DNA from: Promethearchaeota archaeon
GTDB taxonomy: Archaea > Asgardarchaeota > Lokiarchaeia > Sigyniarchaeales > SOKP01
Reading direction: 5' to 3'
Assembly: GCA_029838195.1 (NCBI GenBank)
Contig: JALGVJ010000067.1
Span: 1 to 10,943 of the forward strand
Length of the DNA: 10,943 nt
How positions within the stretch are numbered: position 1 is the stretch's first letter; each line of letters begins with the position of its first letter. Made by a program: the position numbers and the translations under genes. A model generated the notes under the pieces. It had not been told where the DNA came from and made no database searches. It saw only the letters and a list, made by a program, of their open reading frames with translations. Below, piece by piece: positions 5,218 to 5,334 of this stretch.

Positions 5218-5334
5218 ATGAAATTAAGCAAGAAACTTATGGCAACTCTGTTAGTACTTTTGACTATTTCCTATGGGTTAAGTTTAGCCACTGCTGGGGT
5301 TTCCCAACCAGGATGTGCTGAAACAAATCCTTAA
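5218..5334 (+). CDS. 38-aa peptide: Sec-type signal/leader plus 12-aa core GVSQPGCAETNP; candidate RiPP/pheromone precursor
   Basis: Hand translation MKLSKKLMATLLVLLTISYGLSLATAGVSQPGCAETNP*. Basic n-region, hydrophobic h-region, A-T-A cleavage motif. Hand-counted GC 45/117 (38%) versus 6/60 in flank 5101-5160. SD-like and TATA elements upstream, T-tract downstream. Confidence 0.8.
   Translation: MKLSKKLMATLLVLLTISYGLSLATAGVSQPGCAETNP

What the first reader, a model, noticed from the sequence alone, without database searches (positions are those of the whole stretch)
5218..5334. Un-annotated peptide that is two-thirds signal peptide, releasing a 12-mer with a single Cys
Seen: MKLSKK (n-region), LMATLLVLLTISYGL (h-region), SLATA (A-x-A site), then GVSQPGCAETNP and stop. 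GC is clearly above the flanks, and it has its own TATA/SD/terminator-like signals. A signal peptide with only 12 residues of cargo suggests a pheromone or quorum peptide precursor. It compares with Phr/PapR-type Sec-exported peptides, and with the amphipathic leader + Cys layout of AgrD, though the acidic AgrD tail is absent. Inference: the signal peptide doubles as RiPP leader, and Sec/signal peptidase replaces a dedicated exporter-protease, which would explain their absence. Cys to C-terminus spans 6 residues, close to the 5-residue ring of agr autoinducers.
Basis: partly seen in the sequence, partly recalled or inferred. Interest (0 to 1): 0.8.

Follow-up and report, generated by a model that had tools for sequence, protein, structure and literature searches.

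The report
Conserved 38-residue exported peptide of Lokiarchaeia
The tiny ORF is a real, strongly selected gene found in one to four unlinked copies in one order of Asgard (Promethearchaeota) archaea. It encodes an export signal or membrane anchor followed by a 12-residue cysteine-bearing tail that is kept identical among copies within a genome, which fits a secreted or surface signal peptide, a kind not yet known in archaea.

Summary
Window 5218-5334 (+) encodes the 38-aa peptide exactly as described.

**It is a real gene.**
- Homologues of about 38 aa occur in 34 of 400 genomes of the phylum, all within one order. About 148 public proteins match, and none is characterised.
- Within one genome, unlinked paralogues encode identical peptides yet differ by 17-25 synonymous bases and no non-synonymous ones.
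- Each copy carries its own TTTAAATA box, a Shine-Dalgarno-like GGTG/AGGT and an oligo-T terminator.
- It is not the remnant of a longer protein.

**Anatomy.** A KK n-region is followed by a constant 20-residue uncharged stretch. A small-x-small site is kept in about 90% of members. Then comes the tail G-V-S-x-P-G-C-x-E-x-x-P.

**New result.** Where paralogues have diverged in the N-terminal part, the 12-mer stays identical, with synonymous changes only. Between genomes the 12-mer always differs at comparable N-part divergence. So the exposed tail appears to carry lineage specificity.

**Best reading.** It is a Sec-type pre-peptide whose tail is released by signal peptidase I, or stays tethered, and binds an unknown lineage-specific partner.

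**Not supported.** AgrD-like, lipobox, CaaX, and RiPP coupling to the adjacent radical-SAM and ThiF genes. Cleavage, expression and function remain untested.

An earlier scan note on this same window proposed the RiPP cluster, and my tests contradict it.

The parts
5141..5148 (+). TATA-box-like element (TTTAAAAA), 77 nt upstream of the ATG; putative archaeal promoter of a monocistronic unit
   Evidence: Sequence. All 24 family copies examined have a TTTAAATA-type box (five near-consensus octamers accepted) within about 130 nt upstream of the start, and 18 have the exact octamer TTTAAATA 47-97 nt upstream. Promoter function is inferred, not shown.
5206..5212 (+). Shine-Dalgarno-like AGGTTGA, 6-12 nt upstream of the ATG
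   Evidence: Complementary to the 16S 3' end ...GGATCACCTCC read in the same window. A GGTG, AGTGA or AGGT motif lies at -10 to -15 in 21 of 24 family copies.
5218..5334 (+). Coding sequence of the 38-aa peptide (P0001), including the TAA stop
   Evidence: Translation. Conserved family. Paralogues in one genome differ by 17-25 synonymous nt and 0 non-synonymous.
5218..5295 (+). Residues 1-26: n-region MKLSKK, hydrophobic segment L7-Y19, G20, and c-region LSLATA with small residues at -3 and -1. This is a Sec-type signal peptide or signal anchor.
   Evidence: Column statistics on 114 unique members: K5/K6 nearly invariant, position 24 is A/S/V/T in 109 of 114, position 26 is A/S/G in 103 of 114, and position 25 is variable. 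The AlphaFold2 helix spans residues 2-26. There are exactly 20 residues between KK and G27 in every member whose DNA I fetched and dissected.
5296..5331 (+). Residues 27-38: GVSQPGCAETNP, the exposed C-terminal dodecapeptide. G27, V28, P31, G32, C33 and P38 are invariant. Positions 30, 34, 36 and 37 are lineage-specific.
   Evidence: for conservation; the 12-mer is identical among within-genome paralogues whose N-parts differ by 2-8 residues, with 4-10 synonymous differences in these 12 codons, and it is never identical between genomes at comparable N-part divergence (0 of 149 pairs).
5349..5371 (+). Perfect 10-bp hairpin (AATTGGTTTT / AAAACCAATT) in the 3' untranslated region
   Evidence: Fold of 5335-5412: -12.3 kcal/mol, z = -2.2 against shuffles. 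It was not checked for conservation in other copies.
5390..5405 (+). Oligo-T tract (T5 C T10), a putative archaeal transcription terminator
   Evidence: Sequence. A T-run of at least 5 lies within 62 nt after the stop in 23 of 24 family copies. Terminator function is inferred from general knowledge of archaeal oligo-T termination.

Best explanation
Window 5218-5334 is an independently transcribed, translated gene of a micro-protein family restricted to one order of Promethearchaeota (Lokiarchaeia).

The 38-aa product is a pre-peptide. The basic n-region (KK) stays in the cytoplasm. The hydrophobic segment (residues 7-26) inserts into the membrane as a Sec-type signal. The last 12 residues (G-V-S-x-P-G-C-x-E-x-x-P) are exposed outside the cell.

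This tail is the working part. Its invariant residues form a recognition core: GVS, PGC with a single thiol, E35 and the C-terminal Pro. Four variable positions (30, 34, 36, 37) give it a lineage-specific identity that is held constant among all copies in a genome, as expected if it must fit one unknown, co-evolving partner such as a receptor or surface protein.

Most likely the archaeal signal peptidase I cuts after the small-x-small site (A24-x-A26) and releases a diffusible 12-mer, a pheromone-like or ligand peptide. Several gene copies would raise its dose.

Shown: it is coding, under purifying selection, has this anatomy, is multi-copy, and the tail is concerted among paralogues. Inferred: export, topology, cleavage, and the existence and nature of a partner.
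For: **Real gene**
- It is conserved as a roughly 38-aa frame in 22 of 41 relatives at E<=10, about 17 of them below 1e-3, and in 34 of 400 genomes of the phylum at E<=0.001.
- 148 public proteins match, mostly of exactly 38 aa.
- The three G006 and three G037 paralogues encode identical peptides with 17-25 synonymous and 0 non-synonymous nt differences, and their flanks are unrelated.

**Own expression signals** are present at essentially every copy.

**Signal-peptide grammar**
- K5K6 are nearly invariant.
- The -3 and -1 positions are small in 109 and 103 of 114 members, while -2 is the most variable column of the C-terminal half.
- G20 sits at -7.
- There is no Pro at +1.
- The AlphaFold2 helix ends at A26.
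- A signal peptidase I gene is present at G000:C62, 114 bits against a cut-off of 52.

**The tail carries specificity**
- In G004, G016, G024 and G010 the paralogues differ at 8, 7, 6 and 2 residues of the 22-codon N-part. Their 12-mers are identical despite 4-10 synonymous differences within those 12 codons.
- None of 149 between-genome pairs with 3-10 N-part differences has an identical 12-mer.
- In genus g4 both paralogues carry F30/A34 in G004 and I30/S34 in G016. The neighbouring Ser29 codon keeps its paralogue-specific family (AGT versus TCN). This argues against a long gene-conversion tract.

**Accessory character** fits a signalling or competition function. The distribution is patchy: 0 of 42 genomes in g2 and 1 of 54 in g11, against 5 of 5 in g9 and 6 of 7 in g3. 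The copy in the sister species G001 is a pseudogene.
Against: - There is no direct evidence of transcription, translation, export or cleavage. No RNA run holds the locus.
- The N-terminal part is unusually conserved for a mere signal peptide: L11, L15, Y19 and G20 are each in at least 106 of 114 members, and the 20-residue spacing is invariant.
- In one g6 subclade the -1 residue is Met (…SMASM|GVS…), and in family f4 the -3 residue is Trp. Cleavage exactly before G27 therefore cannot be universal.
- Tail identity among paralogues is a tendency, not a rule. G182 has A36V in one of three copies. G280 and G003 copies differ in the tail. G037 has two tail types.
- Short-tract gene conversion cannot be fully excluded with only 12 codons.
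- No candidate receptor, transporter or modifying enzyme is linked to any copy.
- A 38-aa chain is released from the ribosome before SRP can act, and archaea lack SecA. The export route is therefore unknown (general knowledge).
Confidence: 0.5

Rival explanations
1. It is an uncleaved single-pass membrane micro-protein (N-in, C-out). The 38-mer stays in the membrane as a small subunit or regulator of a membrane complex, or as a tethered surface ligand, with the GVSxPGCxExxP tail lying on the outer face.
For: - The length is constant at 20 uncharged residues between KK and G27. L11, L15, Y19 and G20 are near-invariant, and Ala/Ser/Gly small residues are conserved through residues 10-27.
- The helix is predicted through residue 26.
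- In some lineages all paralogues are identical over the whole length, not only in the tail.
- Non-canonical -1 and -3 residues occur in some clades.
- From general knowledge, most known prokaryotic proteins of this size with one hydrophobic segment (KdpF, CydX, AcrZ) are membrane-resident.
Against: - The small-x-small pattern with a free -2 position, placed exactly before the invariant G27, is what signal peptidase I needs.
- N-part residues drift between paralogues while the tail does not.
- No helical-face periodicity of conservation was detected in residues 7-26 (permutation p about 0.6-0.76).
- The distribution is patchy and a sister species carries a pseudogene. That is odd for a subunit of a core complex.
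- No membrane-complex gene is linked.
Confidence: 0.3
2. It is a lipobox-like or other Cys-directed processing substrate. The invariant GVSxPGC would be a recognition site for an unknown enzyme that modifies Cys33 (lipid or thioether) and/or cuts next to it, leaving a very short lipidated or modified C-x-E-x-x-P product.
For: - P31-G32-C33 are invariant, with a small residue at +2 (G/A/S/T in 106 of 114) as in lipoproteins.
- The most conserved block of the family surrounds the Cys rather than the variable tail.
- The rare variants without Cys (PGF, PGY, PGL) look degenerate.
Against: - The lipobox consensus [LVI][ASTVI][GAS]C is not met. Position -2 is an invariant Pro. Position -3 (column 30) is mostly Ile (82 of 114) but also takes G, D, Q, Y, F, S and T, none of which fits [LVI].
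- No Lsp (PF01252) was found in the 96.6%-complete genome.
- AliA is reported from Euryarchaeota and DPANN, and few lipoproteins are predicted in Asgard (PMC12462473).
- No archaeosortase/exosortase family was found.
- Cys lies 5-7 residues from the end, so this is not a CaaX box, and no PPTA alpha-subunit repeats were found.
- The motif occurs only once in the whole genome, so it is not a general sorting signal.
Confidence: 0.1
3. It is a RiPP precursor matured by the upstream ThiF-like adenylyltransferase (2359-3366) and B12-binding radical-SAM enzyme (3423-5012). This is the reading of scan note e1-5539556.
For: - The three genes are co-oriented in this window, with short gaps.
- The radical-SAM protein has weak similarity to RiPP C-methyltransferases, among many other B12-rSAM families, all far below their cut-offs.
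- In G030 a distant B12-rSAM (28% identity) again lies directly upstream of a divergent peptide copy.
Against: - Orthologues of the rSAM (42-65% identity over most of its length, 38-50% for the two pieces in G018) in G001, G004, G006, G016, G018, G023 and G024 all lie on contigs other than the peptide copies.
- Genomes with 2-4 peptide copies (G003, G037) have no orthologue at E<=1e-20. G023 has the rSAM orthologue and no peptide; G007 and G033, which carry only distant B12-rSAM relatives (about 30% identity), also lack it.
- Thirty-odd other copies sit among unrelated housekeeping genes such as Alba, M28 peptidase, CdhD, MaoC, FTR and ACS.
- The peptide has its own promoter-like box and terminator.
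- A hydrophobic Sec-type N-terminus is not a typical RiPP leader (general knowledge).
Confidence: 0.04
4. It is a type-I-toxin-like small hydrophobic peptide: a membrane-damaging toxin held in check by an antisense RNA, spread in several copies.
For: It is a small protein with a single hydrophobic helix. It is multi-copy at unlinked sites, stands alone as a gene, has a patchy distribution and shows occasional pseudogenes.
Against: - Purifying selection is very strong and long-lasting, with saturated synonymous divergence.
- An invariant, non-hydrophobic, Pro/Gly/Cys-containing tail ends in Pro.
- Strong SD and promoter-like signals argue for constitutive translation.
- No conserved antisense element was noticed in aligned flanks (checked by eye only).
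- Flank similarity between paralogues is limited to the ORF plus at most about 100 nt.
Confidence: 0.04

Closest known systems
Sec-exported pro-peptides of Gram-positive RRNPP quorum-sensing systems (Bacillus Phr, PapR, NprX)
   Same: A roughly 40-aa precursor consisting mostly of a Sec signal peptide. The active part is a short peptide at the C-terminal end. The C-terminal peptide varies between lineages, like pherotypes. Several copies per genome are possible. (Family properties are from general knowledge; the anatomy here is.)
   Different: No cognate receptor gene (Rap, PlcR or NprR with TPR repeats) lies next to any copy. The host is archaeal. There is no sequence similarity and no Pfam or NCBIfam hit. 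The tail has an invariant GVSxPGC core with a Cys. No secondary processing site is evident.
AgrD autoinducing-peptide precursor (staphylococcal agr)
   Same: A small precursor of about 46 aa with a single essential Cys a few residues from the end of the mature peptide.
   Different: AgrD has an amphipathic, non-Sec leader and an acidic C-terminal tail that AgrB removes while forming the thiolactone. Here there is no tail beyond the putative ring, no AgrB homologue in the genome, and a classical Sec-type signal.
Small single-pass membrane proteins that join membrane complexes (KdpF, CydX, AcrZ, sarcolipin-type)
   Same: 30-40 aa, one hydrophobic helix, conserved small residues in the helix, and often missed by annotation.
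   Different: Those are usually encoded in the operon of their partner complex. The copies here are monocistronic and unlinked, patchily distributed, and their most specific constraint lies in the extramembrane tail.
Bacterial and archaeal lipoprotein signal peptides (lipobox)
   Same: An N-terminal signal followed by G-C with a small residue at +2.
   Different: Position -2 is an invariant Pro and position -3 is free. Cys lies 7 residues after the small-x-small site. Only 5 residues of 'mature protein' would remain. No Lsp was found, and AliA is not reported in Asgard (PMC12462473).
Eukaryotic short secreted or lipidated mating and signalling peptides (yeast a-factor precursors of 36-38 aa; plant CLE 12-mers)
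   Same: The precursor size and a roughly 12-residue Pro/Gly-containing mature peptide. The a-factor also has a Cys near the C-terminus. This is a resemblance recalled from memory, a lead only.
   Different: The a-factor has no signal peptide and a strict CaaX end. Here Cys is 5-7 residues from the end and no prenyltransferase alpha-subunit repeats were found. CLE precursors are much longer. There is no detectable homology.

Membership tests
Sec/SPase-I signal peptide (von Heijne tripartite signal) | Positively charged n-region | tested here: met
   K or R at column 5 in 104 of 114 members and at column 6 in 114 of 114.
Sec/SPase-I signal peptide (von Heijne tripartite signal) | Hydrophobic h-region followed by a helix breaker and a short polar c-region | tested here: met
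   L7-Y19 is hydrophobic, G20 is in 113 of 114, and the c-region is L-S-x-A-x-A. The AlphaFold2 helix spans residues 2-26.
Sec/SPase-I signal peptide (von Heijne tripartite signal) | Small uncharged residues at -3 and -1, and no Pro at +1 | tested here: met
   Position 24 is A/S/V/T in 109 of 114. Position 26 is A/S/G in 103 of 114. Position 25 is free. G27 is invariant. About 10% of members break the rule (M, V, D or Q at -1; W or F at -3).
Sec/SPase-I signal peptide (von Heijne tripartite signal) | Actual cleavage by signal peptidase I | not testable with these tools
   The enzyme gene is present (TIGR02228, 114 bits, G000:C62). Cleavage itself needs SignalP or DeepTMHMM as a prediction and peptidomics as proof.
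RRNPP pro-peptides (Phr/PapR/NprX) | The gene lies adjacent to its cognate TPR-type receptor gene (a cassette) | tested here: not met
   About 35 genomic contexts were compared. No neighbour family is shared by more than 5 loci, and those that are shared are housekeeping genes.
AgrD / agr autoinducing peptides | An AgrB-family membrane peptidase is present | tested here: not met
   PF04647 has no match in G000, which is 96.6% complete.
AgrD / agr autoinducing peptides | A C-terminal acidic recognition tail after the ring residues, and an amphipathic non-Sec leader | tested here: not met
   The peptide ends 5 residues after Cys33, and the leader is a KK plus hydrophobic Sec-type segment.
Lipoprotein (lipobox) precursors | [L/V/I]-3 [A/S/T/V/I]-2 [G/A/S]-1 C+1 | tested here: not met
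   Position -1 is G (met). Position -2 is Pro in 113 of 114 (not met). Position -3 is variable and includes D, Q, G, Y and S (not met). The consensus is as quoted in PMC12462473.
Lipoprotein (lipobox) precursors | Lipoprotein maturation enzymes (Lsp, or archaeal AliA/AliB) | tested here: inconclusive
   PF01252 has no match. AliA is reported from Euryarchaeota and DPANN, with few lipoproteins predicted in Asgard (PMC12462473). I did not search AliA itself here.
RiPP precursor of the adjacent B12-rSAM/ThiF genes | Conserved co-localisation or co-occurrence of precursor and maturase | tested here: not met
   The rSAM orthologues in 7 relatives lie on other contigs. Peptide-positive genomes exist without the rSAM, and the reverse. 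ThiF is next to the peptide only in this window.
CaaX-type prenylated peptides (a-factor-like) | Cys exactly four residues from the C-terminus, and a protein prenyltransferase alpha/beta pair | tested here: not met
   Cys is 5-7 residues from the end. PPTA repeats (PF01239) are absent. The Prenyltrans-repeat proteins that are present are secreted or anchored, and the one tested (372 aa, C70) occurs in 35 of 41 relatives, including genera that lack the peptide.
PGF-CTERM / archaeosortase substrates | A C-terminal PGF motif plus TM helix plus basic tail, and an archaeosortase | tested here: not met
   The order is reversed here: basic, then TM, then PGC at the C-terminus. PF09721 has no match in the genome.
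Type I toxin-antitoxin toxins | An overlapping or adjacent antisense RNA antitoxin, and toxicity on over-expression | not tested
   Only a by-eye inspection of aligned flanks was made, and no conserved antisense element was seen. There are no RNA data.

The most novel reading that the evidence does not exclude
The family is the first ribosomally encoded, Sec-exported peptide signal (pheromone) of Archaea. Signal peptidase releases a roughly 12-residue thiol-bearing peptide. A yet unidentified, co-evolving receptor senses it. Positions 30, 34, 36 and 37 define lineage-specific 'pherotypes', and multiple gene copies set the dose. This would mean cell-cell peptide signalling in the syntrophic, eukaryote-related Lokiarchaeia.
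Probability: 0.25. Interest if true: 0.85.

Novelty: new variant of a known kind. Interest (0 to 1): 0.65.

Why it matters
No peptide-based cell-cell signal and no characterised sub-40-residue exported peptide is known from Asgard archaea, to my knowledge and in a limited literature search. These organisms live in obligate partnerships and are the closest known relatives of eukaryotes.

The family offers several things:
- a compact, very strongly selected and easily synthesised 12-mer
- clear lineage-specific variants
- a sharp presence/absence pattern across sister genera (present in g3, g4, g6 and g9; not found in g2 and nearly absent from g11)

Together these make a search for its partner directly feasible by phylogenetic profiling and co-evolution.

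The family also raises a mechanistic question. A 38-residue pre-peptide is too short for co-translational SRP targeting, and archaea have no SecA. How it is exported is therefore unclear.

If it turns out to be an uncleaved micro-protein, it would still be a new clade-specific membrane component that standard annotation overlooks.

Tried and rejected
**Family and look-alike searches**
- Pfam and NCBIfam scans of the peptide gave no family.
- The ESM Atlas look-alikes were only unnamed 38-46-aa clusters at scores of 0.81-0.83, which is uninformative.

**Structure and complex**
- Complex prediction with four copies gave no verdict (score 0.03). It is not evidence either way.
- The AlphaFold2 monomer is one helix (residues 2-26) plus a low-confidence tail. 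It is too small for a fold search.
- I tested for helical periodicity of conservation in residues 7-26. It was not significant (p about 0.6-0.76), so no conserved helix face can be claimed.

**Expression and population data**
- The look-up of sequencing runs listed no RNA holder.
- Read laying on four DNA runs gave fragmentary, low-depth contigs and no variants inside the ORF. This is uninformative.

**Genome-wide and partner checks**
- A scan for GVSxPGC-type motifs in longer proteins found only this ORF, so the motif is not a general sorting signal.
- A crude survey of N-terminal signals of large proteins in the genome found too few clean cases to define a local signal-peptide grammar.
- The candidate partner with Prenyltrans repeats (G000:C70, 372 aa, secreted and anchored) is present in 35 of 41 relatives, including genera without the peptide. 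It shows no co-occurrence.
- AgrB, exosortase/archaeosortase, Lsp and PPTA were not found in the genome.

- The search for homologous proteins needs at least 40 aa, which I solved by putting a 40-aa member first in the alignment.
- The 'longer' and 'shorter' length classes of the word-indexed search were not run. The exhaustive profile search covers all lengths instead.
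Full report
**1. The observation**

The window is archaeal. It starts with the 3' end of a 16S rRNA (1-218), followed by a tRNA at 488-589. At 5218-5334 (+) an ATG-to-TAA frame encodes MKLSKKLMATLLVLLTISYGLSLATAGVSQPGCAETNP, 38 aa.

It lies in a 639-nt gap between a B12-binding radical-SAM gene (3423-5012) and an ADP-forming acetyl-CoA synthetase alpha gene (5652-7085). G+C is 0.38 over the ORF and 0.12-0.20 beside it.

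**2. Is it a gene?**

Yes, on three independent grounds.

(a) Conservation as a short frame.
- A six-frame search of 40 relatives finds it in 22 of 41 genomes at E<=10, about 17 of them below 1e-3. Nearly all matches lie in open frames of 37-77 codons that end where the peptide ends.
- A profile search of 400 genomes of the phylum finds it in 34.
- The 5.8-billion-protein collection holds 148 members at E<=0.01, mostly exactly 38 aa. All are 'hypothetical', except one record named 'exported protein of unknown function', and the named sources are Promethearchaeota MAGs.
- An exhaustive HMM search of 1.84 billion representatives returns only 26 clusters. In the few longer proteins the match sits at the extreme C-terminus, meaning mis-called upstream starts, or the stop has been lost.

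(b) Selection.
- In G006 three copies, and in G037 three copies, lie on different contigs with unrelated flanks.
- They encode identical peptides while differing by 17-25 nucleotides, every one synonymous.

(c) Expression signals.
- All 24 copies examined carry a TTTAAATA-type box within about 130 nt upstream; 18 have the exact octamer 47-97 nt upstream.
- 21 of 24 carry a GGTG/AGTGA/AGGT element at -10 to -15, complementary to the 16S 3' end read in this very window.
- 23 of 24 carry an oligo-T run within 62 nt after the stop.
- In the window these are 5141-5148, 5206-5212 and 5390-5405, with a 10-bp hairpin at 5349-5371.

**3. Anatomy of the family**

These figures come from 114 unique sequences.
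- Met and two or three variable residues come first, then K5-K6.
- Exactly 20 uncharged residues follow in every member whose DNA I fetched and dissected.
- Within that stretch L11, L15, Y19 and G20 are near-invariant.
- The c-region is A24-x-A26. Position 24 is A/S/V/T in 109 of 114 and position 26 is A/S/G in 103 of 114. Position 25 is the most variable column of that half.
- The tail is G27-V28-S29-x-P31-G32-C33-x-E35-x-x-P38, with G27, V28, P31, G32, C33 and P38 invariant or nearly so.
- A divergent branch (family f4) ends …GGVSDPGC-x-[IV]-P-x.
- AlphaFold2 with the alignment gives a helix over residues 2-26 and an unstructured tail.
- A signal peptidase I gene of the archaeal type is present in the genome.

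**4. Where it occurs**

- It occurs only in one order of the phylum: f1 28 of 134, f2 2 of 14, f4 3 of 4, and no hit in about 250 genomes of the other families.
- Within f1 the distribution is sharply patchy: g9 5 of 5, g3 6 of 7, g4 3 of 4, g6 6 of 10, but g2 0 of 42 and g11 1 of 54.
- Copy number is 1-4 per genome.
- In the sister species G001 the copy has an in-frame TAA at codon 14 and changes at otherwise invariant V28 and S29. It is a pseudogene.
- The gene is therefore accessory.

**5. Context**

- I compared about 35 loci by all-against-all clustering of neighbouring ORFs. No neighbour family is shared by more than five loci.
- The shared sets are local synteny blocks of housekeeping genes: Alba, M28 peptidase, a ChsH2-like protein, CdhD, MaoC dehydratase, FTR and ACS.
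- Another scan note (e1-5539556) read the upstream ThiF and B12-radical-SAM genes as a RiPP cluster. They are not linked to the peptide elsewhere.
  - Orthologues of the rSAM (42-65% identity) in seven relatives lie on other contigs.
  - Peptide-rich genomes such as G003 and G037 have no orthologue.
  - Some genomes with the rSAM orthologue (G023) or distant rSAM relatives (G007, G033) have no peptide.
- One exception is G030, in another family. The order GTPase, then a distant B12-rSAM (28% identity), then the peptide recurs there, with a peptide variant ending PGFGP that lacks the Cys. I read this as relic synteny of an old locus.

**6. The tail is the lineage-specific part**

I split each gene into a 22-codon N-part (KK plus 20 residues) and the 12-codon tail.

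| Comparison | N-part residue differences | Tail residue differences | Synonymous nt differences in tail |
|---|---|---|---|
| G004 paralogues | 8 | 0 | 5 |
| G016 paralogues | 7 | 0 | 4 |
| G024 paralogues | 6 | 0 | 10 |
| G010 paralogues | 2 | 0 | 5 |
| 149 between-genome pairs | 3-10 | at least 1 in every pair | not tallied |

Over all 201 between-genome pairs the mean tail difference is 3.6 of 12 residues.

In genus g4 the two paralogue lineages are recognisable by their N-parts and by their Ser29 codon family (AGT versus TCN). Yet both copies carry F30/A34 in G004 and I30/S34 in G016. This is parallel change in the tail without homogenisation of the adjacent codon. It argues for selection to keep all copies of a genome equal, rather than for a long conversion tract.

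More genomes confirmed the trend: G183 and G186 have divergent N-parts and identical tails. They also showed exceptions: A36V in one of three G182 copies, differing tails in G280 and G003, and two tail types in G037. With 12 codons and related genomes this is suggestive, not proof.

**7. Mechanism**

The simplest model is as follows.
- The n-region stays inside and the hydrophobic segment enters the membrane.
- The tail is exposed outside.
- Signal peptidase I probably cuts after the small-x-small site and frees a 12-mer, or a 14-mer in clades where residue 26 is Met.
- The invariant core (GVS, PGC, E, terminal P) and four lineage-specific positions fit one co-evolving partner.
- Multiple unlinked copies with strong signals suggest a need for dose.

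Only the sequence-level facts are shown. Export, cleavage and the partner are inferred.

One open point comes from general knowledge. A 38-residue chain leaves the ribosome complete, so SRP cannot act co-translationally, and archaea have no SecA. Targeting must be post-translational by an unknown route.

The main rival is an uncleaved single-pass micro-protein. The unusually conserved hydrophobic part and its fixed length support it. I could not detect a conserved helical face, and homo-oligomer prediction gave no verdict.

**8. Comparison with known systems**

- It works most like the Sec-exported pro-peptides of RRNPP systems (Phr, PapR). It is not a member: no adjacent receptor and no homology.
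- It is not AgrD-like: no AgrB, no C-terminal tail and a Sec-type leader.
- It does not meet the lipobox: Pro at -2 and a free -3. No Lsp was found. The known archaeal lipidation enzyme AliA is reported from Euryarchaeota and DPANN, with few lipoproteins predicted in Asgard (PMC12462473).
- It is not a CaaX or PGF-CTERM substrate.
- The secreted Prenyltrans-repeat protein that I tested as a possible partner is near-universal in the order, so it does not track the peptide.

**9. Verdict**

This is a genuine, strongly constrained, clade-specific micro-gene family of Lokiarchaeia.

Its AgrD and RiPP elaborations are not supported.

The function remains unknown experimentally. A secreted or surface-exposed lineage-specific ligand is my best estimate (about 0.5). 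A membrane micro-protein comes next (about 0.3).

Noticed in passing
window 1-218 and 488-589: The 3' end of an archaeal 16S rRNA is followed by a 102-nt tRNA that Rfam finds (54 bits) but ARAGORN misses, so it probably carries an intron. No 23S rRNA follows within the next 10 kb, so the rRNA genes appear unlinked here.
   Followed up: no
window 2359-5012: A ThiF-like adenylyltransferase and a B12-binding radical-SAM protein (529 aa, far below every NCBIfam cut-off) lie co-oriented upstream of the peptide. Another scan note read this as a RiPP cluster. The rSAM orthologues in seven relatives are not next to any peptide copy.
   Followed up: yes
L028 1906-5105 (G030:C6): A genome of a different family keeps the order Obg-like GTPase, then a distant B12-rSAM (28% identity), then the peptide. 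The peptide variant there starts at GTG and ends …GISIPMPGFGP, with Cys replaced by Phe. This is possibly the ancestral locus of the family.
   Followed up: partly
L042 3708-3821, minus strand (G001:C64): The same-genus copy is a pseudogene, with TAA at codon 14 and the invariant V28 and S29 changed to I and Y. It lies on the opposite strand relative to the conserved acetyl-CoA synthetase neighbour, so a small inversion or relocation has occurred.
   Followed up: partly
L030 4989-6295 (G027:C10): Two family copies lie in tandem about 960 nt apart on the same strand in an f4 genome. Elsewhere the copies are dispersed.
   Followed up: no
L073 1169-2287, minus strand (G000:C70:38171-39286): A 372-aa protein has a signal peptide, Prenyltrans (PF00432) alpha/alpha-toroid repeats and a C-terminal TM anchor with a basic tail. 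It is conserved in 35 of 41 relatives. The gene upstream of it (L073 2452-3423, minus strand) encodes a 323-aa protein carrying CxxC pairs, which by eye may be actin-related; I did not test this.
   Followed up: partly
window 7151-9555: On the minus strand lie a 282-aa leucine-rich-repeat protein and an adjacent 496-aa ORF with no Pfam or NCBIfam match. Only the start of the 496-aa ORF's homologue lies on the fetched stretch of same-genus G001.
   Followed up: no
P0134 / L064 (G185:C192): One family member carries an insertion of about 20 residues inside the c-region (…SYGLSVFPFRNNDYSMATAGVNPFYFLGWSSGIPGCGESTP). Another member, L063, has Cys replaced by Tyr. These are degenerate copies in a MAG with 7% contamination.
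   Followed up: no
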